Assembly: GCA_040766265.1 (NCBI GenBank)
Contig: JAXGQW010000010.1
Span: forward strand, 363-64,362
DNA from: Verrucomicrobiota bacterium
GTDB lineage: Bacteria > Verrucomicrobiota > Verrucomicrobiia > Limisphaerales > J093
DNA: 64,000 bases
Direction: 5' to 3'
Shown: positions 28,801-38,344 of the stretch, piece after piece
Layout: every line of letters begins with the position of its first letter
How positions within the stretch are numbered: the first letter of the stretch is position 1
The notes under the pieces: generated by a model
Database searches by the model: none
Seen by the model: the letters and a program-made list of their open reading frames with translations, nothing else
Told to the model about the DNA's origin: nothing
Program-made: the position numbers and the translations under genes

Positions 28801-29138
28801 ATGATCGGGGCGACGATGTCCTGCGACTCGGCATGGCCCTGCCGCGCGCGTGGCTGGCGGACGGCCAGAGTCCGGCCATCGAACGCGCCGCGACGCGCTT
28901 CGGCCCAATGAGCCTGCGGTACGAGTCCAGGGCAAATGCCGGCTCGATCACGGCAGTCCTCGACCCGCCAAGGCGCCGCGCGCCGGAGCGCGTCCTGCTC
29001 CGCTTCCGCCATCCGGAGGCCAAGCCCTTCCGGCGCGTCGAGGTCAACGGCCAGCCCTGGACGCGGTTCGATCCGGACAAAGAATGGGTCGAACTGCCGA
29101 AAGCGGAGCATCTATTGACCATCGTGGCCTTCTACTAG
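25851..29138 (+). CDS. Secreted six-hairpin glycosidase-like protein
   Basis: 1095 aa, signal peptide, Trp/Tyr-rich helical core (HGWIMWAMAEHYW.TGD..WL), C-terminal A.T.FG.MS beta domain; family unassigned. Confidence 0.65.
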   Translation: MTAMLPFFGRALPCLILGMAIWAAEPGQPSLSLVPGANVDVAPWGERASWENDRDAGVWWEDPRDIHRVVVAFADTPPPPDRARLEWWQSQWPERRIPRDQPAGAGESGWGHLGDLYQGQWREADADIESTGTTWEYTFRPIHQKEFRRLESFEARHRTTMRLRLLFEGTAPKIERIEAFTDSVWRSVEIGIEWGGQATGERRWDGQLSVFNGYVEALAPLVSGPGGSRVEITSPAQWRSSVRDLPDGVRCRVWFADSPNVNTFDSTVVTLRAASGGFSFDPAAVGKGATILCPMHDAVVGPADQIALEHLRQTRSQGVGCSAFRAAAERARTNGTPTLYARVFDEPEQSLERALAEQPPKRGRMYLPVGLEGGRQRFGINPSGSVFCVNDRIDAPPGKDTVRRRWGGQRLDYDFGLPQSGLTRRWIEDDCLPIQHAEWECEGIRYSQTAFATRLDPGSLGYPDTQADDTTILMVKIAGRNLAQEYKPARVALSLRADGRSVPLHLEEGVVRARLADGEVIRALIEGQGQANPPEVDGTIQYFGNMPPGTDGFIVVKIPFITLDAPDEIERLRNLEFDREFDRTRRFWRSRVAAGTRITTPIPELNNFHRAHVSHLLINCGREPGANRLAARVGGFSYGVFGNESCMMITDLDRRGLHGEAERCLDTFLDYQGTVRLPGDYTSQEGVFNGAFGWEEGGYNQHHGWIMWAMAEHYWQTGDKPWLARHADRLVKACHWIISQRARTRNLDGLRRIERGLLPPGSLEDIGDWRCWMSNNGFSWWGLNAVASALADIHHPEAQALRTEAEAYRRDILDAFHEARVRSPLVPLRDGTWIPQIPSEVHRRGRTFGWITVTLEGPIYFLRTGLMAPDDPMAVPIMQDFEDNLYLSERYGYSWEKHGAHWFSRGGISMQPNLLCSPHPYLLRDEIKHFLRAYFNAFASCYYPDTQMMCEHPLPDLGDWRGDHYKASDESNSTYWLRLMFIEDDRGDDVLRLGMALPRAWLADGQSPAIERAATRFGPMSLRYESRANAGSITAVLDPPRRRAPERVLLRFRHPEAKPFRRVEVNGQPWTRFDPDKEWVELPKAEHLLTIVAFY

Positions 29139-29150
29139 CGCGCGGCCCGC

Positions 29151-31400
29151 TCATTCGACCGTGATCTGCACGCACTCGCTCGCCCCGCCGAGTGTGCTGC
29201 AAACGATCCGGTGTTTGCCCCGCTCGATCGGCCAGAACAGGGGCTGCCCGACACGCGATCTCCCGACCGGCCGGTCGTCCACAAACCAGTGCAGAGGATC
29301 GCCCGCCCGGTCGGTGGCGGCGTCGAATGCGATGCGCTGGGCATCGACGTCGAGGTCCGGCACATGGCGGTAGGTGCAGCCGCGCGCGGGTGACAGGATG
29401 CGCAACGAGCCGGCGGACTCCCCCGCTACCGGCGCCGCGCCCCGGTTCAGGAACGCCGCCACGGACGGAGGCCAGGCCGCTTTGGCACCCTCGCGGTGCA
29501 CCGGGCAGAACTCATGCCGGGAGACATTCGCGATGGCCCAGTCCTCGCTCCGACATCCACAATGCGGTCCCGGCACGCAGCCGCTCTCGGCACACACGGC
29601 GCGCGTCACAATGCCCGCCGGACGGGCAAACCACGGCCCCCGGTTGTCCGGATAGAGCCGCCGCAGCAGGTCCCAGGCGATGGGCGTGGCGATCCTGCGC
29701 CCGACCAGATGTTCAGAGGCGGATCCGTCCGAGTTGCCCGCCCAGACGGCAATGACGACTTCCGGATTCCAGGCAACCGTCCAGGCGTCGCGCAGACCCG
29801 CGGAGGTCCCGGTCTTCCAGGCCATGGGCGGCAAGCGCACGTCGGCAGTATGGCCCGTGGCGTCCATGGCGCGCTCCTCTCCACCGAGCATCTCGCTGAT
29901 CAGCCAGCAGGCTTCCGGCGAGAAGACCCGCCGCGTCGCCGGCGGGTTCGGGGACTCGACGAAGCGCGGGGGAGCCCAACCGCCGCCCCGCGCCAGGCAG
30001 GCATAGGCGTTGGCGAGGTCGAGCAACCGCACCTCCGCATTGCCCAGCACCAGGCCAAGTCCATAGTGAGATGCGGGTTTGGAGATTGAGGACAAGCCTA
30101 CGTCGCGGAGGATGGCGTGGAACCGTTCCTGACCCACCCGCTGCTCGATATCGATGGCCGGCAGATTCAGCGAAAGCACCAAGGCGTGGCGCACGCTGAC
30201 CCGGCCCAGAAAATCGAGCGAGAAATTCCGCGGATCGAAATCGCGAAAGCGCGCCGGCACATCCGCCAGCACCGTGGCGGGGGTGACGAGCCCGCAGTCG
30301 AGGGCCAGCGCGTAGGCGAAGGGCTTGAGGGTGGATCCCGCCGCGCGCCGCGCGACCGCGCCGTTGACTTGTCCCGCGCGAGGCCGCGCGTAGTCGGGGG
30401 AACCCACCAGGGCGCGCACCGCGCCGGTTCCGACCTCGATCACGACCACAGCTCCGCAGTCGACGGGGCCGCCCTGCAGACAACGTCGCAGACTGCCTTC
30501 GGCCAGGCGCTGCAGATCGGCATCCAGGGTGGTGCGGACGACGGACCCGCAGGCGGGGCGCGCGGGCACCCCGACGAGGTCGCAGAAGTGCGGCGCGCTG
30601 AACGGATAGGAACCGGGGCGCACCTGGATCGGTTGGGCGAGAGCCTCCGCCCGTTCCCGTGCCGTGATCATCCCCCGGGCTTGCATGCGGTCGAGGACCC
30701 AGGCCTGACGTTCTTTCGCCCGCTCCGGATGTCGGTCGGGCCGCAAACGCGATGGGGATTGCGGCAAACCGGCAAGCAGGGCCGCCTCGGCAAGGCACAG
30801 TTCATCGGCTCCTTTGTGGAAGTAGCGGCGCGCCGCGGCCTCGATGCCGACGATGTTGCCGCCGAAGGGCGCACGGTCGAGATAATGCGCCAGGATCTCC
30901 CGCTTGCCCAGGCGGCGCTCCATCTGCAGTGCGCGGAAGGCCTCGATCACCTTGGTTCGGAGCGTCCGCGGGCGCGGCTCAATCATCCGAATGACCTGCG
31001 TCGAGATCGTCGAGGCCCCCGAGAGGCGGCGTCCAGAGAACAGGTTCTGGGCTGCCGCACGCGCGATCGCCAGACCATCGACGCCGGGATGCGACCAGAA
31101 CCGCCGGTCTTCCGCGGCGACGATGGCCTTGACGATCCAGTGCTCGGCAGCAGGTGCGTAGCCTGGGCGTCGGTCGAGTCCGCCCACGGCCAGACGCACC
31201 CGCAGCGGCTCGCCACCGCGGTCCGTCAGCACGACCGAGGGAGTGGCGCGTGTCAGTGTGTCCGCCGGAAATGGCGCCCAGCGCACCGCCGCTTCGAACG
31301 CGGCGGCACAGGCGGCTCCGGCCAGGGCCGTCCGCCACGCCCACGCGCGTTTCCCGCGGGGGCGGCATCGACGACATGGTGTTGTAGCCGCCTGGCTCAT
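29151..31400 (-). CDS. pbpC: Penicillin-binding protein 1C
   Basis: EDRRF..HPGVD, GASTISTQ, STLK, SLN, KTGTS and PBP1C-type C-terminal domain; ATG at 31400 overlaps A2M stop. Confidence 0.92.
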   Translation of the reverse strand: MSQAATTPCRRCRPRGKRAWAWRTALAGAACAAAFEAAVRWAPFPADTLTRATPSVVLTDRGGEPLRVRLAVGGLDRRPGYAPAAEHWIVKAIVAAEDRRFWSHPGVDGLAIARAAAQNLFSGRRLSGASTISTQVIRMIEPRPRTLRTKVIEAFRALQMERRLGKREILAHYLDRAPFGGNIVGIEAAARRYFHKGADELCLAEAALLAGLPQSPSRLRPDRHPERAKERQAWVLDRMQARGMITARERAEALAQPIQVRPGSYPFSAPHFCDLVGVPARPACGSVVRTTLDADLQRLAEGSLRRCLQGGPVDCGAVVVIEVGTGAVRALVGSPDYARPRAGQVNGAVARRAAGSTLKPFAYALALDCGLVTPATVLADVPARFRDFDPRNFSLDFLGRVSVRHALVLSLNLPAIDIEQRVGQERFHAILRDVGLSSISKPASHYGLGLVLGNAEVRLLDLANAYACLARGGGWAPPRFVESPNPPATRRVFSPEACWLISEMLGGEERAMDATGHTADVRLPPMAWKTGTSAGLRDAWTVAWNPEVVIAVWAGNSDGSASEHLVGRRIATPIAWDLLRRLYPDNRGPWFARPAGIVTRAVCAESGCVPGPHCGCRSEDWAIANVSRHEFCPVHREGAKAAWPPSVAAFLNRGAAPVAGESAGSLRILSPARGCTYRHVPDLDVDAQRIAFDAATDRAGDPLHWFVDDRPVGRSRVGQPLFWPIERGKHRIVCSTLGGASECVQITVE

Positions 31401-34400
31401 GGAATCACCCGCACCTGACCGCCAGCGGCCACGCCCCGGATTTCCGGCTCGTACATTCCGGACACGGTGACCGGAGGGAGCGCATAGAGACCCGGTGTCA
31501 CGGCGCGCACGGCGTAGTGGAAGCTGGCTGTGTCCTGGATCGGCCCGGTGAACACGAGCATCCGGTCGTCGCGGGCATCGCGGTGCGAGTCGCCCTCGTC
31601 CTTCTGCTTGATCCAGTCGCATTGCTGCGAGGTGGCCAGGTGCGCGTTTTCGATCTCCCACCCGGCGGGCAGGAGATCTTCGATGACCAGTTGGTCGAGC
31701 CTGCGCCCCTTCGTGTCCACTGTTAATCGCACGACGATCAACTCTCCCTGTGGCAGCTCCGCAGGATCGATCGGTTCCCCGCCCGGATCGAGGAATTCCC
31801 GCTGGATTGAGACTCCCTGTTCCGACGCCGCTTCGGGCGTGGGCGAGACTCCCTCGTGGCGCATCAGCAGATAGAGCGTGCCCGGACCATCGTTCTTCAC
31901 GGTCACGGAGCCGCCCTGGCCGGAGCCGAGCGACCAAGCGACGTCGTTTGTGCCCGAGAATGCGCGCACCGAGCCGTCCGGCAGCGTCAGGGTTCCGGCG
32001 AACGGCTGTTCCGCGGCGGGGAGATGTCGCGCCAGCTTGCCAAAGGCCAAGAGCGCCAGGGCGTTGTCCTGCGTGTTGCCCCAGTGTCCGTCTCGCTGGC
32101 AATCGCGCAAGTGCTGGGCCAGCCGCGTCACGGCCTCATGTTGCGGATTCACATCGATCCAGGCGGCGAGCAGCAGCGCGGCGTCGCGCACATTGCTGTC
32201 CAGCAGCCGCCCCGGCACGCGCGCCCGAGCCGCCGGCAGGCCCATCGATTCAATCAGCGGCAGGGCCCGACGCGGCTCCCCAGCGAGGATCATCGCGGCG
32301 GCAAGGTGAGCGCGGGCCGCGAAATTCAGGCGAACGGATTGCTCGTTCAGGCGCGCGTTCCAGCCTGCATCCGCGCGTCCTGCGAGAGCGAGGATATGGC
32401 ATTGGTAGGCGCGGTCCTGCATTGCGACAGTCCAGTCAGCTTCGCTGGCTGCGCTGGACACCGGCGAATCGAGGCAACTCCGCACCCAAGCCAACGCCAG
32501 ATCGAGGCGATCGGCAGGCACCCGGAAGCCGGACGCGTTGGCCTCGACCAGGAAATGTGTGGCATACAGAGAAGCCTCCTGCGCCACACTGCGCGAGAAC
32601 GGCCACGGCGCGAAGCCGCCGTCCTCCTGCTGCATTGAAAGCACGCGCGCAATCGCCCCGGGCACCCAAGCCGACACGTCGCCAATCGACCGGTCGGAAG
32701 GCAACAGGCGTGTCGCCCACTCGGCTGCGTACAGCAGCGGAAAGGCGCCCGACACCGTCTGTTCAAGACAACCGTACGGATAGTGCACCACGTGATCGAG
32801 CGCACGGCCCATCTGCAGCGACGGGAGTGCCGAGAGCACACCCGAGACCGACAGCGACGCCTCGATCCAGTCTTCCGGCGCGGCCACGGTGGCGCTTTCA
32901 CCGGGCGCCAGCACACGGTTTACGGCTTGGACACGACTGCCGGACGGCGGACGCACCGCCAGTTCGATGGTGTCCCGGAACGATTCAGCGCCGGCGTCGA
33001 CCTCGATCGTGCAAAGCGCCTTGCCCGGTCCCGGTCCCGCCGCCAGCGGCAGCGGCGCCTGGGCCGAGCCGCCCGCCGGGATTTCGATCGTTTGCTCTGC
33101 CCGGTCGGTTCGCAACGGACCACCGCAGGTTACACGCAGAGTTGCCGTGAGAGGTCCGTCGCTCTCGTTGCAAAGCGAAACCGACGCCGCGCACGCATCG
33201 CCAATGGCCAAGAACCGCGGCAGTGCGGGCTGCACGACCAGGTTGCGTTTGACCCGCACGGGGATTGCGGTCGAACCGGTCTGGGCCTCATTGTAGGCCA
33301 CGGCCATCAAGCGCAGCTCCCCGACAAACTCGGGCAGATCCAGTTGGAAGCGGGCCTGCCCATTGGCATCCAATGGCAGAGCAGCCAGCCACATCGCCAC
33401 CGGCTTGAACCGGCTGGCCTGAATCGGGTTGAGCCGCCGCCGCAGGAGGCTGCCACCGTCGCCGCCCGGCGCAGCCGCCTTCTCGAGTTCGTCGCCGATC
33501 AACGGCATCAGCTCGCTGTAGAGATCGAAGCCGTCCACACCCAGCGCCCGCTGCGCCTCAAAGACGTTCGCTGGATCGGGCGTCTTGAACTCGGTCAGCA
33601 GGCAGATCGCTTCGTCGACCGCCAACACCGTCACCGCGCCTCGCGCGGGCTTGCCGTCTTCAGCGCGCACGGTCACGGCGCCGTGGTACTGTGTCTGGGG
33701 GCGTGCCGCGGCTGGCCCGTCCAAGCGAAGATCGAGTCGGTGACCGGGCCGATCCACCGGCAGTGCGATTGCCCCCAGGGCACGGTGCGCGCTCCAGACC
33801 GCCTCCGGGCGCGCGGGGCGAATGAGCGTCAACGTGCAATACAGATTGGGGATACTGTCCGCGTCCACACGCACTTCGATCTCGGCGGTATTCTTGTCCA
33901 GCGTCACCAAGCGCGCCTCGCGCACGCGATCCGTCTCCACCGTCAGCAACCCCGTACCGGCGAAGGGCGCGCGCACCTGCAAACGCGCCACGTCGCCGGG
34001 ACGGTAACGCTCCTTGTCCCACGACAGTTCGACGCGGCCTGGCCGCTCGCGGCTCCAGGCGAGCCAGCGGGAATCGGTTGCACCGGCGGCGAACGAGAGA
34101 CTGCTCGAGGCGCCCGAGGCGGGATCGGACGCCGACAGCAGGTATTCCCCCGCGCTGTCCACCGCGAAGGCCCAGTCCGTCGGCGTGCCGCCTGCGCCCA
34201 GGGTATCCTGGCGGATGACGACGGCCTGGCGTTCCGACTGCCACTCATAACGGCCCTGACTGTTCTTCCGCAGCACCGAGTTCCACGTCACGCGCGACAG
34301 CGTCAAGACCAACGGCTTGCCTGCCGCCACTGGCGTGCCGTCGGGCGCCACCTCGACCACCGCCACCCGCTGCGTCTCGCCTGCGCGAACCGCACCCTCC

Positions 34401-36808
34401 CAGGCCTGTTTGAGCCCGACGTAGAAGGGATAGGCATCCAATCGCCTCGCGCCGTAGGCCGTCACGGCCCGTCCGCTCGGTTCCATCACGGTCGCCCCCA
34501 GCACCACGCGCAGGCTTGCCGGGGGCCGCCAGGCCCGCAGGCTCTCCACGTCGAACCCGCGGCGGCCCTGGGCATCCAGCCAACCTGCCCCGAGCTTTTG
34601 GTGGACGGGGGCAAACTCCTTCTCGCTGTCGCCAAACCACCATCCGGGCCAGTCGGGCGACGTGAAGGGCGCCGGGTTGATGGTGGCGGTTCCGGTCACC
34701 CGCAATCCATGAGCCGCGCGTCCGAACAAGTAGGCGGCGCGCACGCCGAAGCTGAGCGTGTCACCCGCCTCAGCCGGTTCCTTGGGCGCTTGGACGTCGA
34801 CTCGGATCTGTGGCGGCACGAAATCCTCGAGTGCCACCGAAGTTTCACCTAGCACCGTGAATGTGCCTGGCATGGCCAGTTCCACGAGGTAACGGCCCGT
34901 CGGCAGGAACTCGGGCAGCCTGACCTCTGTCCGCGCGGATCCGTACTCATCCAGCCCCACCGGAACGTCCTGATAGACGCGCCCGTCGGGTCTGCGGACG
35001 CGCAGCAGCGCGGGGAACGGCTCTGGTGCGCGGCTCTGCGAGTCACGGGCAATGGCTTGGAGGAACATCGTCTCGCCCGGACGGTACACGCCTCGATCGG
35101 TGAATACGGCCGCTTCCACCTCGCCTGGCGCCAGGTAACGCGCTCCTGCGAGGCCCTCGCCCTGATCGACCTTCGTCCCGGCCAGATCGAGATAGGACAG
35201 GTCGCCATCGAGCGCCGCCGTGATCACGAACGGCTCCGTGCCGTCCTCTGCCGGCCACTCGAACCGCGCCACCCCCTGCGGGTCGGTCGTGCCGCGGGCC
35301 AGCGCCTGATTGTTCCGCGCCAGAACCTGCACGGCGGCCCCCGCCGCGGGCTCCGCCTTCCGCAGCGAGTTTACCCACACCAGCACCCCGCCTCGGAACG
35401 TTCGCGCAGCAATGCCCAAATCCGTGACGACCAGAAGCCGGCCATCGCCATTAGCCTGCGGACCGCCGACCTCGATCCAGTAGACGCCGCGCGGCTCCGC
35501 GCCCGCCAGTGCGCGCAGGTCGACCGCCGCGCGCACCGTCGCGCCGCCCGTCGAGGCTGGCAACGCATTGGTTGCGGTCCGCCGGGGGCCCGCCAAATCC
35601 GTCGTCAGGGGGCCCCAGTGGTCGTCCGACTCGCGACGGGCCAGTTCGACCAGGTTGTTTTCGAACACCGGCATCAGCGCCACAACCATCTCTTTCAGGT
35701 TGACGGCCCGAACCGGCACGCTCAGCGCGCCGCCCGGCGCCAGGTACCGCCCTGGTTCGTCCAGTCGCACCGCCGGTGAGGGCACGGGAAACTGCACCAC
35801 CCGCTTGACCGTCTCCGGCAGGCTGGACCCATTGGCCGCCGGCAGCCCCGACCGGAGAGTGACGGTGTAGATGCCGCCTGGGCTGAAATCGCCTCGCAAC
35901 AGGAACCGCTTGCCCTGCCAGGACTCGACCGCCTCGATCGTGTAGGCCGCCGCCGGCTCGATCAGGATGAATTCCTTCGCCTGGCTCGCCTCCGGAAACG
36001 CGGTGAACTTCAGGTCGAGCAACGGCGGCTCGAACGAGGGGCATTCCGCATCGATGCCGCGAAGCAGCATCTTCACCTCCATCGTCAGAACCCCGCGCTC
36101 CTCGCGGTCCAATGGTCTCGCGTCCGATGCCGAGGGCAAGCCCGGGGCGAGACGGTATTCGAGTTTCTCCGCCAGCACCGGCTGCGTCTCGACCATCACC
36201 GTGTTCGGCCCCATTGCCCCTGAGAGCCGATACTCGACATCGCCCTGTCCCTCCGCCGAAAGATGCAGATGGCGTGTCAAGTGCTCGCGCTCGGGCTTCT
36301 CGTTGAACTCGAATACCAAGGTGACCGCCCGATCTGGCGACACGTCCGCCTGCTCCACCTTTCGGAGCCGCAGAACCTTGTCTGCCGGCCTGGCGGTTTC
36401 CTCGATGCGAACCGGCTCGGGCCCCGGCCCAGACGCCGGCTCACCCCGCGACGGCAACTGCGCGGTCCACTTCCACACCCCGTAGGCGTTCAGCAACAGG
36501 AACGCCAGTCCGAGCGCAAACCAGCGTCCCGACCCGCGGCAAGAGGACGTCGGAGAGGCGGGGGCCGACGCGCCGGCTGACGCTTCTTCCGCGAACGATT
36601 CCGGCGGATCCATCTCGGCCAGGATCCGCTCGATGGCATCGAGGTTCGCTTCGCCTTTCGCCTCCGCGCGCCGCATCGCTTCGGCGATGTGGTCCCGAAG
36701 ACCCGACAGGACCTCCCGGCGCGCCGCCGCGGTCCGGTGCGCCAGATGCCTCTCAACGGCGGCGAGATACGCCTCGACGCTCCGTGCGGACGCCTCGTTC
36801 CACTTCAT
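31397..36808 (-). CDS. Bacterial alpha-2-macroglobulin with N-terminal HAAS-like domain and TM anchor
   Basis: TDRGVYRPGE, AVDEAI, YPYGCLEQ thioester motif, DLLPAGWE, RDDR, MYEP; N-terminus YL..V..HL...R.EVL..LR.HI.E...ILAEMDPPESFA followed by TM helix. Confidence 0.93.
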   Translation of the reverse strand: MKWNEASARSVEAYLAAVERHLAHRTAAARREVLSGLRDHIAEAMRRAEAKGEANLDAIERILAEMDPPESFAEEASAGASAPASPTSSCRGSGRWFALGLAFLLLNAYGVWKWTAQLPSRGEPASGPGPEPVRIEETARPADKVLRLRKVEQADVSPDRAVTLVFEFNEKPEREHLTRHLHLSAEGQGDVEYRLSGAMGPNTVMVETQPVLAEKLEYRLAPGLPSASDARPLDREERGVLTMEVKMLLRGIDAECPSFEPPLLDLKFTAFPEASQAKEFILIEPAAAYTIEAVESWQGKRFLLRGDFSPGGIYTVTLRSGLPAANGSSLPETVKRVVQFPVPSPAVRLDEPGRYLAPGGALSVPVRAVNLKEMVVALMPVFENNLVELARRESDDHWGPLTTDLAGPRRTATNALPASTGGATVRAAVDLRALAGAEPRGVYWIEVGGPQANGDGRLLVVTDLGIAARTFRGGVLVWVNSLRKAEPAAGAAVQVLARNNQALARGTTDPQGVARFEWPAEDGTEPFVITAALDGDLSYLDLAGTKVDQGEGLAGARYLAPGEVEAAVFTDRGVYRPGETMFLQAIARDSQSRAPEPFPALLRVRRPDGRVYQDVPVGLDEYGSARTEVRLPEFLPTGRYLVELAMPGTFTVLGETSVALEDFVPPQIRVDVQAPKEPAEAGDTLSFGVRAAYLFGRAAHGLRVTGTATINPAPFTSPDWPGWWFGDSEKEFAPVHQKLGAGWLDAQGRRGFDVESLRAWRPPASLRVVLGATVMEPSGRAVTAYGARRLDAYPFYVGLKQAWEGAVRAGETQRVAVVEVAPDGTPVAAGKPLVLTLSRVTWNSVLRKNSQGRYEWQSERQAVVIRQDTLGAGGTPTDWAFAVDSAGEYLLSASDPASGASSSLSFAAGATDSRWLAWSRERPGRVELSWDKERYRPGDVARLQVRAPFAGTGLLTVETDRVREARLVTLDKNTAEIEVRVDADSIPNLYCTLTLIRPARPEAVWSAHRALGAIALPVDRPGHRLDLRLDGPAAARPQTQYHGAVTVRAEDGKPARGAVTVLAVDEAICLLTEFKTPDPANVFEAQRALGVDGFDLYSELMPLIGDELEKAAAPGGDGGSLLRRRLNPIQASRFKPVAMWLAALPLDANGQARFQLDLPEFVGELRLMAVAYNEAQTGSTAIPVRVKRNLVVQPALPRFLAIGDACAASVSLCNESDGPLTATLRVTCGGPLRTDRAEQTIEIPAGGSAQAPLPLAAGPGPGKALCTIEVDAGAESFRDTIELAVRPPSGSRVQAVNRVLAPGESATVAAPEDWIEASLSVSGVLSALPSLQMGRALDHVVHYPYGCLEQTVSGAFPLLYAAEWATRLLPSDRSIGDVSAWVPGAIARVLSMQQEDGGFAPWPFSRSVAQEASLYATHFLVEANASGFRVPADRLDLALAWVRSCLDSPVSSAASEADWTVAMQDRAYQCHILALAGRADAGWNARLNEQSVRLNFAARAHLAAAMILAGEPRRALPLIESMGLPAARARVPGRLLDSNVRDAALLLAAWIDVNPQHEAVTRLAQHLRDCQRDGHWGNTQDNALALLAFGKLARHLPAAEQPFAGTLTLPDGSVRAFSGTNDVAWSLGSGQGGSVTVKNDGPGTLYLLMRHEGVSPTPEAASEQGVSIQREFLDPGGEPIDPAELPQGELIVVRLTVDTKGRRLDQLVIEDLLPAGWEIENAHLATSQQCDWIKQKDEGDSHRDARDDRMLVFTGPIQDTASFHYAVRAVTPGLYALPPVTVSGMYEPEIRGVAAGGQVRVIP

Positions 36809-37152
36809 GATTGCGCTTCCTTCCCCTGGTCGGATTTCAATCGCTCCAATGCGTGTGTCAAGATGGGCCAGTAGGCGTTCATCTCCGCCAGGCGCACCTT
36901 GCCCCGCGGCGTGAGCGCAAAATAGCGGCGCGGCGGCCCGGCATCCGAACGCGCATCCCGCGACTTGAGATATCCGTCGTCGCGCAGCCGGCCCAGGATG
37001 GGATAGACCGTGCTCTCCGAGACCGAGAGATCCTCGATGCGTTTGAGCGCCTGCACGATTTCGTACCCGTAGTTCTCCCCCCGCCGCAGCACGAGCAGCA
37101 GGCAGTACTCGATCAGCCCCTTGCGCAACTGGGTGATCCAGCCCTCGATCAT
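36805..37152 (-). CDS. PadR-family transcriptional regulator
   Basis: QLRKGLIE..LL.L...YGYEI...ESTVYP.L.RL...GPPRRYF.LT..G; 4-bp overlap with A2M start. Confidence 0.95.
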   Translation of the reverse strand: MIEGWITQLRKGLIEYCLLLVLRRGENYGYEIVQALKRIEDLSVSESTVYPILGRLRDDGYLKSRDARSDAGPPRRYFALTPRGKVRLAEMNAYWPILTHALERLKSDQGKEAQS

Positions 37153-37162
37153 GAGCTACTCC

Positions 37163-37205
37163 GTATCACATATTACGCAATACAGAATACAGAACGGCCC
37201 GTCAA
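37163..37205 (-). promoter_or_regulatory. Putative padR promoter with overlapping palindromic operator
   Basis: AT-rich imperfect palindrome GTATCACATATTACGCAATAC (37163-37183, 7/10 pairs); TTGACG -35 on minus strand at 37200-37205. Confidence 0.55.
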
Positions 37206-37295
37206 GTCTCATCGGGGCCGCATGGGTCCGCGTCTTGGAGGTCTCCGGCTTCACGGTCGTGACAACTCCATGAAAGATGCGGGCGGTGTCCCGCC

Positions 37296-37535
37296 CCAGC
37301 CTGCATTTCTCACCACTTTTTGCCACCGCGAAGCCAGAGTTCTCAAGAGAAGTCAGCATGCAGGCTGGGAAAGCAAAACCGCGCCCGAGTGGAGGGATTC
37401 AACCGGGCAACAGGATGTCGCCGCACCTGCGAGGTTCCGGAAGCGCTCCAAACCTCGTCTTTCCCTGTGCGGGCGCGGTTTTGCCACAGCCCGGATTTCG
37501 TTGTCATCCTCCCGGCGGTGAGAAATCCGGGCCAG
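37296..37535. repeat. Stacked hairpin-cassette (MITE-like) array 1: A-B-A'
   Basis: A 37296-37368 nearly identical to 49822-49894; B ends GCAAAACCGCGCCC/GGGCGCGGTTTTGC; A' ends CCCGGATTT/AAATCCGGG. Confidence 0.8.
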
Positions 37536-37597
37536 GTGCGATTCGCGAGAGAACAGGCGGCTTCCCCTGTGGCTGTGAAGAAGGGTACGCTGGACCC

Positions 37598-38344
37598 ATG
37601 AATGGTCTGACGGCGAGGTTGATGGTGTTCACGAGCGGGTTCATTGTCATGGTTCTCGAGATCGTGGGCGCTCGTTTCCTGGGCAGGGATTTCGGCGGTT
37701 CATTCTATGTGTGGGTCAGCCAGATCGGCGTCATCCTGATCGCCCTGGCCGCAGGCTCGTACCTCGGCGGCGCCTGGGCGGACCGGGCACAGCGGTTGCG
37801 TCCGATCGGCGTCTGCCTGCTGATCGCGGGCCTGTTCACGGCGCTCCAGCCCGAGCTGGCTCCGCCCCTGATCGTGTCGATCGTCGCGCGACATCCCGCG
37901 GACGCGCCCATTCCGATGGTTTGGCAGAAGTTGGATCCCGTCCTGGGCAGCGCGGTGGTGTTTCTTCTGCCGGCGCTGGCTCTGGCCACACTGCCGCCGT
38001 ACCTGATCCGATGGTCGACTGGCAGTCTGGACCGGCTCGGACGCTCGAGCGCGGCGATTGTCGCGTCCAACACGCTGGGCGGAATTGCCGGCGTGTTTGC
38101 CACAGGGTATGTTTTGCTGGACGTGATGCGGATATCCAGCATTTTCCGGCTCATGGGAGCGTTGATCGCAGTGCTCGCCGTTTGTTGCCTGTGCGCGGAT
38201 CGCCGCGGGTCAAGGGCGGGTCGAAACCTGGCCCGCATGTGCCATGAACTTGTGACCGCGGCGAAGCCGAACGCCTCCGAAGGTGTGCCAATGCGGGCTG
38301 GAACATTGCCGGCTGCTGCCGGCGTTTCCACGAGTTGCTCATGA
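37598..38344 (+). CDS. Membrane (MFS-like) half of split spermidine-synthase-like protein
   Basis: SGFIVMVLEI.GAR.L...FG.S..VW...IGV.L.ALA.G..LGG..AD; probable ATG 37598. Confidence 0.82.
   Translation: MNGLTARLMVFTSGFIVMVLEIVGARFLGRDFGGSFYVWVSQIGVILIALAAGSYLGGAWADRAQRLRPIGVCLLIAGLFTALQPELAPPLIVSIVARHPADAPIPMVWQKLDPVLGSAVVFLLPALALATLPPYLIRWSTGSLDRLGRSSAAIVASNTLGGIAGVFATGYVLLDVMRISSIFRLMGALIAVLAVCCLCADRRGSRAGRNLARMCHELVTAAKPNASEGVPMRAGTLPAAAGVSTSCS

What the first reader, a model, noticed from the sequence alone, without database searches (positions are those of the whole stretch)
29151..37205. PadR + HAAS-TM-alpha-2-macroglobulin + PbpC: candidate protease-triggered envelope signalling system
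Seen: three genes with 4-bp overlaps and a palindromic operator-like site upstream. The A2M has no lipoprotein signal. It begins with a roughly 75-aa helical domain (YL..V..HL...REVL..LRDHI.E...ILAEMDPPESFA), then a linker and one TM helix, and it retains the CLEQ thioester motif. Known: bacterial A2M-PbpC pairs are usually lipid-anchored protease traps with a wall-repair partner, and HAAS (DUF1700-like) domains partner PadR regulators in membrane-stress modules. Inference: the trap doubles as a receptor. Bait cleavage in the periplasm would be relayed through the TM to HAAS, which sequesters or releases PadR and autoregulates the trap and repair genes. I know of no description of this fusion but cannot search.
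Basis: partly seen in the sequence, partly recalled or inferred. Interest (0 to 1): 0.85.

Follow-up and report, generated by a model that had tools for sequence, protein, structure and literature searches.

The report
Protease trap fused to signalling domain
A bacterial protease-trapping protein carries on its cytoplasmic end a small domain that normally partners the repressor encoded next door, so attack on the cell envelope may be reported directly to the trap's own genes.

Summary
On the minus strand lie padR (36805-37152), an 1803-aa HAAS-TM-alpha-2-macroglobulin (31397-36808) and pbpC (29151-31400). Both junctions are ATGA overlaps. The N-terminus scores above Pfam's cut-off for HAAS, one TM helix follows, and the CLEQ thioester motif is present.

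The fusion is not an artefact. 112 of the 114 full-length nearest A2M relatives carry the same HAAS-TM head. padR sits directly upstream in all 36 related A2M loci from named assemblies. pbpC follows in 28 of those 36.

A 37-bp dyad-symmetric element (37155-37191) lies just before padR in 21 of 21 loci. It occurs only once in the window's own genome.

The best reading is a self-contained, autoregulated envelope-defence cassette. PadR represses it through the 37-bp operator, and the HAAS head captures or releases PadR. That the signal is the state of the trap, meaning protease capture, is inferred and untested. Weakly conserved linkers, part of one modelled as disordered, and a HAAS-less relative with the same anchor weigh against a direct conformational relay.

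My literature searches found no description of this fusion; supplements could not be read. I rate it a new variant of a known kind (HAAS-PadR dyad; type-I bacterial A2M/PBP1C pair).

The parts
37200..37205 (-). -35-like hexamer (TTGACG), 8 nt upstream of the operator element
   Evidence: Read from the sequence. In the upstream alignment by eye, a TTGAC or TTGC hexamer precedes the element in 19 of 21 loci, at variable spacing. The strict promoter scan did not call it.
37155..37191 (-).
   Evidence: EM motif search over 21 loci. The PWM correlates with its own reverse complement at r 0.80. On average 22.4 of 36 positions are self-complementary, against 9.1 +/- 3.7 in shuffles. It is the only site above 14 bits in the 5.53-Mb own genome. 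It scores 39.7 bits or more upstream of padR in 35 of 36 A2M-linked loci.
36805..37152 (-). padR: 115-aa PadR-family winged-helix regulator
   Evidence: PF03551 E 8.5e-21, 74.2 bits. 56-87% identical in 20 of 20 sampled loci. Mean column identity 70% across 21 orthologues.
31397..36808 (-). HAAS-TM-alpha-2-macroglobulin, 1803 aa
   Evidence: Pfam domains HAAS, bMG3, MG2, bMG5, bMG6, A2M_BRD, A2M and bMG10. The nearest solved relatives are Salmonella A2M 4U48 and E. coli YfhM 4RTD/4ZIQ, aligned over residues 294-1796.
36584..36772 (-). HAAS domain, residues 13-75, with the near-invariant M-D-P-P-E motif at 66-70
   Evidence: PF22564 is above its cut-off and matches 18 of 21 orthologue N-termini at E <= 0.001. 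M66 is conserved at 93%, D67 at 97% and P69 at 98% in 126 proteins.
36461..36529 (-). single transmembrane helix, residues 94-116, with a conserved Asn at 107
   Evidence: AF2 helix 94-116. W96 is conserved at 95%, F103 at 91%, L104 at 91%, N107 at 95% and W112 at 94% in 126 proteins, while the flanking linkers are poorly conserved.
32759..32770 (-). thioester motif CLEQ, residues 1347-1350
   Evidence: CxEQ is kept in 19 of 19 full-length locus proteins. It is present in 110 of the 114 full-length nearest database relatives.
29151..31400 (-). pbpC: penicillin-binding protein 1C, 749 aa
   Evidence: TIGR02073, 598.8 bits against 494.2. Pfam Transgly, Transpeptidase and BiPBP_C. It lies downstream of the A2M in 17 of 20 loci and in 28 of 36 loci.

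Best explanation
This is a self-contained, self-regulated envelope-defence cassette. Shown: the genes encode a PadR repressor, a YfhM-type thioester alpha-2-macroglobulin and PBP1C. The macroglobulin's usual lipid anchor is replaced by a cytoplasmic HAAS domain plus one TM helix. A conserved 37-bp dyad element, unique in the genome, spans the region from just downstream of a -35-like box to the start codon of padR. Inferred, step 1: a PadR dimer binds this element and represses the three translationally coupled genes, as shown for the Listeria PadR LltR on its padR-DUF1700 operon. Inferred, step 2: the HAAS domain, held at the inner face of the membrane, binds PadR through the groove around its M-D-P-P-E motif and so takes it off the DNA. 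Inferred, step 3: this capture depends on the state of the periplasmic trap, that is, bait cleavage, thioester reaction and the resulting compaction. Because the linkers are poorly conserved, the relay more likely runs through a change in self-association of the Asn-bearing TM helices, or through turnover of spent trap, than through a rigid push through the membrane. The outcome would be more trap and more wall-repair enzyme when a foreign protease reaches the periplasm.
For: The fusion is fixed in the clade: 112 of 114 full-length nearest A2Ms carry the HAAS-TM head, and 17 of the best 150 representatives at 50% clustering are 1700 aa or longer. padR is directly upstream in 20 of 20 loci and in 36 of 36 A2M-linked loci; the two sets overlap. 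The HAAS motif is 93-98% conserved in 126 proteins, so the head is under selection and is not a relic. The thioester motif is kept in 19 of 19 and 110 of 114 proteins, so the trap is also under selection. The operator element is conserved, symmetric and unique in the genome. By my reading of the rows, 13 of 36 relatives carry an exact ATGT-N10-ACAT core. That is the canonical PadR operator form described in PMC3506622 (passages). This genome has only one HAAS match, so the PadR-HAAS pair is dedicated to this operon. Only the three genes, not their flanks, are shared with the distant carriers, so the cassette behaves as one unit. Precedents: HAAS always neighbours a PadR-like wHTH and was proposed to relay signals to it (PMC11237479, passages). 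LltR autorepresses lltR-lmo0600 (DUF1700)-lmo0601 more than 100-fold (PMC6624303, passages). Contigs from RNA libraries of two studies bridge the A2M/pbpC junction (X1 at 31143-31738, X4 at 30839-31799). This is compatible with co-transcription, but DNA carry-over is not excluded.
Against: No binding of PadR to HAAS or to the element was measured here. Both linkers flanking the TM are poorly conserved, and part of the cytoplasmic one (residues 81-91) is modelled below pLDDT 50. This argues against a rigid conformational relay. One relative (G071, L032) has the same Asn-bearing TM anchor directly at its N-terminus, no HAAS, and creD rather than padR directly upstream. Two of the 114 database proteins also begin at the TM. 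So the anchor and the trap can do without the signalling head. Close HAAS-TM relatives of only 165-240 aa have little or no ectodomain, so the HAAS-TM module may sense on its own. The window's inner right half-site differs from the ATGT/ACAT form kept in relatives, and the three own-genus loci L053-L055 share this change. Solved YfhM-type A2Ms are lipoproteins for which no signalling role is mentioned in the passages I read.
Confidence: 0.45

Rival explanations
1. The HAAS-TM module, not the macroglobulin, is the sensor. It responds to a membrane or wall cue, and the A2M is a co-regulated output that merely uses the HAAS-TM segment as its anchor. A gene fusion of a short padR-linked HAAS-TM protein with the trap gene it controlled would produce this arrangement.
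For: Related HAAS-TM proteins next to padR are only 165-240 aa long or carry quite different ectodomains, such as a beta-helix/NosD domain in L095. The TM helix is as conserved as HAAS, with Asn107 at 95%. PMC11237479 ties HAAS-PadR to membrane-stress contexts.
Against: The same TM motif survives in a HAAS-less A2M, so TM conservation need not reflect signalling. The fusion is kept in 112 of 114 relatives rather than splitting again.
Confidence: 0.25
2. The system is a dosage feedback without an outside signal. HAAS binds PadR constitutively, so the amount of trap in the membrane sets the pool of free repressor. Alternatively it tethers the operon's regulator to the site of insertion of a very large membrane protein.
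For: ATGA coupling of padR and the A2M is found in 7 of 21 loci, with short overlaps or gaps in most others, and would fix their ratio. There is one operator in the genome and one HAAS.
Against: By inference only: constitutive 1:1 capture of a repressor by its own co-translated product gives runaway expression rather than control. Nothing here tests this.
Confidence: 0.12
3. PadR answers to a small ligand, as several PadR regulators do, and HAAS is an accessory or a relic with no relay function.
For: PadR-family members such as LmrR bind compounds directly (PMC5428041, search listing only). In Listeria, repression of lieAB by LftR did not need the DUF1048 partner LftS (PMC4517056, passages).
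Against: The HAAS motif is 93-98% conserved in 126 proteins. padR is linked in 36 of 36 loci.
Confidence: 0.08
4. The fusion is an assembly or gene-calling artefact.
For: None found.
Against: The frame is open from the HAAS start to the A2M stop in 19 of 21 loci from independent assemblies. 112 of 114 database proteins carry the fusion. Three other own-genus genomes match the first 139-140 residues at 88-92% identity in open frames of 1348-1920 aa.
Confidence: 0.01

Closest known systems
E. coli YfhM (ECAM) / Salmonella A2M with PBP1c (type-I bacterial alpha-2-macroglobulin)
   Same: It shares the MG-domain series, bait-region domain, CxEQ thioester and MG10, and aligns over residues 294-1796 with 4U48 and 4RTD/4ZIQ. 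The pbpC gene is adjacent.
   Different: There is no signal peptide or lipobox. A cytoplasmic HAAS domain plus a TM helix replaces the lipid anchor. A dedicated PadR gene and operator precede the trap. No regulator of the classical pair is mentioned in the passages I read.
HAAS-PadR-like wHTH dyads (PMC11237479); Listeria LltR-Lmo0600 (DUF1700) (PMC6624303)
   Same: A standalone PadR gene lies directly upstream of a membrane protein with an N-terminal HAAS domain. Autorepression of the operon is shown for LltR.
   Different: The partners listed in the main text of PMC11237479 are PspC, LiaI-LiaF-TM, Toastrack, FtsX-like, FtsW/RodA-like, multi-TM and pentapeptide domains. 'Macroglobulin' occurs 0 times in that text. 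Here the fused part is a 1660-aa periplasmic thioester protease trap behind a single TM helix.
BlaR1/MecR1-BlaI/MecI (recalled from memory, not tested here)
   Same: It works alike in outline. A sensor outside the membrane reacts covalently with the threat, a winged-helix repressor inside is inactivated, and the induced genes protect the wall. PadR gave a weak Pfam hit to Penicillinase_R (E 0.023, below the cut-off).
   Different: There is no zinc-protease domain here. The inferred step is capture of the repressor, not its cleavage. The two systems are not homologous.
Eukaryotic alpha-2-macroglobulin and its receptor LRP (passage in PMC3328433)
   Same: The reacted, compacted form of the trap is what gets recognised.
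   Different: In the eukaryotic case a separate cell-surface receptor clears the complex. Here the proposed read-out is in the same polypeptide and ends in transcription.

Membership tests
HAAS domain (Pfam PF22564; PMC11237479) | Profile match above the curated cut-off | tested here: met
   33.8 bits for the whole protein and 38.6 bits for residues 1-133, against a cut-off of 27. 18 of 21 orthologue N-termini match at E <= 0.001.
HAAS domain (Pfam PF22564; PMC11237479) | Three consecutive helices, the third kinked at a conserved GxP motif | tested here: met
   AF2 model (pLDDT 76.5) with helices 27-50, 56-65 and 70-78, and a break at residues 66-69. P69 is conserved at 98% and D67 at 97% in 126 proteins. 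The motif reads D-P-P rather than G-x-P.
HAAS domain (Pfam PF22564; PMC11237479) | Gene neighbour is a standalone PadR-like wHTH | tested here: met
   padR overlaps the start of the fusion gene. It is upstream in 20 of 20 loci and in 53 of 55 loci.
HAAS domain (Pfam PF22564; PMC11237479) | Fold shared with DUF1048 (PDB 2O3L) | tested here: inconclusive
   Foldseek found no match at E <= 0.001. The best VIA-align matches were generic helical proteins with Z up to 7.1. A profile search of PDB sequences found nothing related.
PadR family (PF03551) | Profile match; short single-domain form with a C-terminal helix | tested here: met
   74.2 bits against 27, residues 18-90 of 115.
PadR family (PF03551) | Operator with an ATGT/ACAT inverted motif, spacer about 8-10 nt (PMC3506622) | tested here: inconclusive
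   13 of 36 relatives have an exact ATGT-N10-ACAT and 5 more have CTGT-N10-ACAT (my reading of the rows). The window and the three own-genus loci L053-L055 have an altered right half. Binding was not measured.
Type-I bacterial alpha-2-macroglobulin (YfhM/ECAM class) | MG domains, bait-region domain and CxEQ thioester | tested here: met
   Pfam bMG3, MG2, bMG5, bMG6, A2M_BRD, A2M and bMG10. CLEQ at residue 1347. Alignment to 4U48 and 4RTD.
Type-I bacterial alpha-2-macroglobulin (YfhM/ECAM class) | Adjacent pbpC | tested here: met
   ATGA overlap with a PBP_1c equivalog.
Type-I bacterial alpha-2-macroglobulin (YfhM/ECAM class) | Signal peptide followed by a lipoprotein box | tested here: not met
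   The N-terminus is a HAAS domain. The only hydrophobic segment in the first 125 residues is the helix at 94-116, and no lipobox follows it.
Type-I bacterial alpha-2-macroglobulin (YfhM/ECAM class) | Covalent trapping of proteases; reaction with methylamine | not testable with these tools
   This needs purified protein.
PBP1C (TIGR02073) | Equivalog score; transglycosylase, transpeptidase and BiPBP_C domains | tested here: met
   598.8 bits against 494.2. Three Pfam domains.

The most novel reading that the evidence does not exclude
The thioester trap is itself a receptor. Covalent capture of an invading protease in the periplasm is turned into transcription by one polypeptide plus one repressor, with no kinase, no sigma factor and no proteolytic cascade. 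The whole sensor-regulator-repair unit moves between distant lineages as a three-gene cassette. This would be the first thioester-protein signalling system in bacteria, and the first HAAS-PadR pair with a defined stimulus that can be applied experimentally.
Probability: 0.4. Interest if true: 0.85.

Novelty: new variant of a known kind. Interest (0 to 1): 0.62.

Why it matters
No regulatory input for the bacterial A2M-PBP1C pair is mentioned in the passages I read. The way HAAS talks to PadR is likewise only proposed there. This fusion joins the two open questions in one protein. Its outside part has a known chemistry, namely bait cleavage, thioester opening and reaction with methylamine. The stimulus can therefore be applied at will and the relay read out with a reporter. 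The family has more than a hundred members at 90% clustering, a dedicated operator and a dedicated repressor, which makes heterologous reconstruction realistic even though all carriers found are uncultured. If the trap turns out not to be the sensor, the family still shows a new way of anchoring and controlling a bacterial macroglobulin.

Tried and rejected
- **Complex prediction.** A prediction for PadR with HAAS(1-80), both supplied as alignments, scored 0.31 and 0.29 against a mark of 0.32, and the controls were not run. This gives no verdict either way.
- **Fold and PDB searches.** Searches with the N-terminal model gave only generic helical matches. A PDB sequence search with the HAAS-TM profile gave nothing related.
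- **PbpC membrane helix.** I looked for a conserved polar residue that could pair with Asn107 and found none across 35 distinct N-termini.
- **Promoter scan.** The strict sigma-70 scan made no call in 28900-37500. I therefore do not claim a -10 box.
- **Rfam.** No match on 36900-37700.
- **RNA libraries.** Only assembled contigs were available. They cannot show a transcript start, strand or level. The parts without cover (for example 36936-37222), and the contig that reaches only 11 nt into padR (X2, 36552-36819), are not evidence.
- **Tree.** The careful tree did not finish in the time allowed, so a quick tree was used.
- **Motif-counting script.** I stopped that step and counted by reading the rows.
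- **Literature.** Searches were HAAS+PadR, DUF1700+PadR, alpha-2-macroglobulin/PadR/PbpC, bacterial A2M terms and macroglobulin/DUF1700/HAAS domain/PF22564/HTH-associated. None of the listed titles or abstract openings joins a macroglobulin with HAAS or PadR. The supplements and web app of PMC11237479 could not be read and may list this architecture.
Full report
**What is in the sequence.**
The minus strand carries three coupled genes.
- padR lies at 36805-37152 and encodes 115 aa. It matches Pfam PadR at 74.2 bits against a cut-off of 27.
- An 1803-aa protein lies at 31397-36808.
- pbpC lies at 29151-31400 and encodes 749 aa. It matches NCBIfam PBP_1c at 598.8 bits against 494.2 and has transglycosylase, transpeptidase and BiPBP_C domains.

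padR ends and the large gene starts in an ATGA overlap. The large gene and pbpC overlap in the same way.

The large protein has the full set of bacterial macroglobulin domains: bMG3, MG2, bMG5, bMG6, bait-region domain, A2M and bMG10. It has CLEQ at residues 1347-1350. It aligns over residues 294-1796 with the solved Salmonella A2M (4U48) and E. coli YfhM (4RTD, 4ZIQ, 5A42).

Its first 75 residues match Pfam HAAS (PF22564) above the curated cut-off: 33.8 bits in the whole protein and 38.6 bits on the first 133 residues, against 27. An AlphaFold2 model built on 21 orthologues (pLDDT 76.5) shows helices 5-21, 27-50, 56-65 and 70-78, a low-confidence stretch at 81-91, and one long helix at 94-116. 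There is no signal peptide or lipobox.

**The fusion is real and old.**
- A word-indexed search with residues 1-140, restricted to A2M-sized proteins, gave 36 clusters at 41-88% identity. Most carried PF22564 in the precomputed Pfam column.
- A search with the thioester region (1130-1630) listed the 120 nearest macroglobulins, of which 114 are 1700 aa or longer. An HMM built from my HAAS-TM alignment finds the head in 112 of those 114; the other two begin at the TM helix. CxEQ is present in 110 of the 114.
- A full HMMER pass over 1.84 billion representatives gave 2019 proteins at E <= 0.001 and 300 at E <= 1e-10. Among the best 150, 17 are 1700 aa or longer. Many shorter top hits may be gene fragments.
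- In a sample of 400 other genomes of the phylum, 20 carry a HAAS-A2M: 18 with open frames of 1800 aa or more and 2 interrupted.

**Linkage.**
I fetched those 20 loci. padR is directly upstream in 20 of 20. The macroglobulin body follows in 20 of 20. pbpC follows in 17 of 20; it is absent in L044, L047 and L048 although DNA continues there.

A separate scan of one genome per species returned 55 loci. Of these, 36 have the macroglobulin body behind HAAS, and all 36 have padR directly upstream. 28 of the 36 have pbpC. Six of the eight misses lie at contig ends, and in L086 and L087 DNA continues without it. The two sets overlap and are not independent.

PadR is the most conserved of the parts, at 56-87% identity, compared with 35-60% for the HAAS-TM head where tblastn aligned it (18 of 20 loci) and 39-70% for the full-length A2M bodies. 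Across 21 orthologues the mean column identity is 70% for PadR and 41% for HAAS-TM.

The window's genome holds only one HAAS match, one PbpC-like match, and a second PadR at 43% identity elsewhere.

**Operator.**
Upstream of padR, an EM search seeded on one locus found a 37-bp element in 21 of 21 loci. In the window it lies at 37155-37191. It ends 0-5 nt before the start codon in 18 of 21 loci and 18-54 nt before it in three. In those three the 3' arm cannot be only a ribosome-binding site.
- The position matrix correlates with its own reverse complement at r = 0.80.
- On average 22.4 of 36 positions are self-complementary, against 9.1 +/- 3.7 in shuffles. The window's copy has 22.
- The layout is an outer pair of 5-6-nt arms, an inner pair, and a palindromic 7-nt centre.
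- In the 36 A2M-linked loci of the second set the element scores 39.7 bits or more in 35. Upstream of the 17 padR genes not linked to an A2M body it scores from -13 to 36 bits.
- By my reading of those rows, 13 of 36 have an exact ATGT-N10-ACAT core and 5 more have CTGT-N10-ACAT. This is the canonical PadR operator form (PMC3506622, passages).
- The window and the three own-genus loci L053-L055 share an altered right inner half-site.
- Scanning the whole 5.53-Mb genome (81% complete) with the matrix finds no other site above 14 bits. The predicted regulon is this operon alone.
- A TTGACG hexamer lies 8 nt upstream. The strict promoter scan made no call, so the position relative to the promoter is inferred.

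**How it most likely works.**
Two precedents exist.
- HAAS was defined as a three-helix domain that always neighbours a standalone PadR-like regulator. It was proposed to pass a signal from fused or associated sensor domains to that regulator through a groove at a conserved GxP motif (PMC11237479, passages).
- In Listeria, loss of the PadR LltR derepresses lltR-lmo0600 (DUF1700)-lmo0601 100- to 150-fold (PMC6624303, passages).

Here the matching motif reads M-D-P-P-E. It is 93-98% conserved in 126 proteins and sits at the break between helices 56-65 and 70-78.

I therefore take three points as the best-supported core. PadR represses the operon at the 37-bp element. The HAAS head binds PadR at the membrane. 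The pair is dedicated to this cassette.

Whether the trap's state is the signal is inference. Three observations speak for it:
- The ectodomain is the only large extracytoplasmic part.
- Head and trap are both under selection and stay fused.
- Unconditional capture of a co-translated repressor would make the regulator pointless.

Three observations speak against a direct relay:
- The linkers on both sides of the single TM helix are poorly conserved, and part of the cytoplasmic one is modelled as disordered.
- A relative (L032) has the same Asn-bearing anchor at its very N-terminus, with creD rather than padR upstream.
- Close HAAS-TM relatives next to padR are only 165-240 aa long or carry unrelated ectodomains.

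The TM helix is as conserved as HAAS: W96 95%, F103 and L104 91%, N107 95%, W112 94%. Established knowledge says that a polar Asn in a TM helix drives helix-helix association. I am recalling that point and did not test it here. If a signal crosses the membrane, a change in self-association or turnover of spent trap is more plausible than a piston-like motion.

**Comparison with what is known.**
The macroglobulin part is a member of the YfhM/ECAM class by domains, thioester and pbpC linkage. It fails that class's lipoprotein feature. The head is a member of HAAS by Pfam's cut-off and by context.

The main text of PMC11237479 lists PspC, LiaI-LiaF-TM, Toastrack, FtsX-like, FtsW/RodA-like, other multi-TM and pentapeptide partners. 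It does not contain the word macroglobulin. Five literature searches found no listed paper that joins the two. Supplements could not be read.

I rate this a new variant of a known kind.

**Expression.**
Contigs assembled from RNA libraries of anaerobic-digester and activated-sludge samples cover parts of all three genes at 95% identity or more. Contigs from two studies bridge the A2M/pbpC junction. DNA carry-over cannot be excluded, and contigs give neither strand nor transcript ends.

**Distribution.**
- The nearest named records are uncultured Verrucomicrobia MAGs, including ADurb.Bin006 (90-93% identity in the head). Further carriers are labelled Kiritimatiellia, Lentisphaerae or Verrucomicrobiota.
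- Within the window's own genus, 4 of 5 other genomes match. In the other genera of its family, 1 of 19 matches, weakly and in a 999-aa frame. In the other families of its order, 0 of 16 match.
- All 20 carriers in the phylum sample belong to another class.
- A quick tree places the window's protein inside one genus of that other class, with SH-aLRT 96 for the clade of six.
- Its flanks are shared only with own-genus loci.

The three genes therefore appear to have been acquired as a unit.

Noticed in passing
window 37298-37420: A short dispersed repeat lies just upstream of the operon's promoter region. It gives 36 blastn matches, including itself, on 29 contigs of the own genome, up to 123 nt long at 95-96% identity. 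In RNA-library contigs its depth is several-fold higher than the operon's, and its flanks differ between contigs. It contains an inverted repeat and a terminator-like hairpin. Rfam gave no match.
   Followed up: partly
window 29151-37205 versus loci L033-L078: The cassette looks horizontally acquired. It is present in the own genus (4 of 5 other genomes). It was not found as an A2M fusion in the rest of the family (0 of 19, apart from one weak hit in a 999-aa frame) or in the order (0 of 16). In a quick tree it nests inside a genus of another class. Only the three genes, not the flanks, are shared with those carriers.
   Followed up: partly
L032 (G071:C2), 1-2978: This macroglobulin starts directly with the same conserved Asn-bearing TM helix. 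It has no HAAS head and overlaps by 4 nt a creD gene (PF06123, 437 bits) where padR would be. It is a HAAS-less form of the same anchor. Two database proteins, P0261 and P0272, also begin at the TM.
   Followed up: partly
L085, L089-L096, L100-L105: These padR-linked HAAS-TM proteins carry the same M-D-P-P-E motif but other extracytoplasmic parts. They are 165-710 aa long. L095 carries beta-helix/NosD domains and a signal-peptidase-like stretch. They come from Pontiella, Planctomycetota, Chloroflexota and Sumerlaeia records.
   Followed up: partly
own genome G000, all contigs: tblastn with PbpC found only this one class-A PBP-like gene at E <= 1e-5 and above 45 bits, in a genome that is 81% complete.
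   Followed up: no
own genome C13:~35655 and C126:~43685: There are two further macroglobulin paralogues of 2046 and 1707 aa, only 23-28% identical, with CNEQ and CFEQ motifs. The tblastn that found them found no second pbpC in the genome. At least one of the two starts with a signal-peptide-like N-terminus.
   Followed up: partly
L036 (G179), L045 (G185); G403 in the own genus: These are interrupted copies of the fusion gene, with open frames of 642 and 1025 aa, and of 224 and 295 aa in G403. The similarity continues beyond the breaks. They may be pseudogenes or assembly errors.
   Followed up: no
L040 and L046 (G026, G287): A gap of 520-607 nt separates padR from the fusion gene, where other loci overlap or nearly abut. 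I did not examine what lies in the gap.
   Followed up: no
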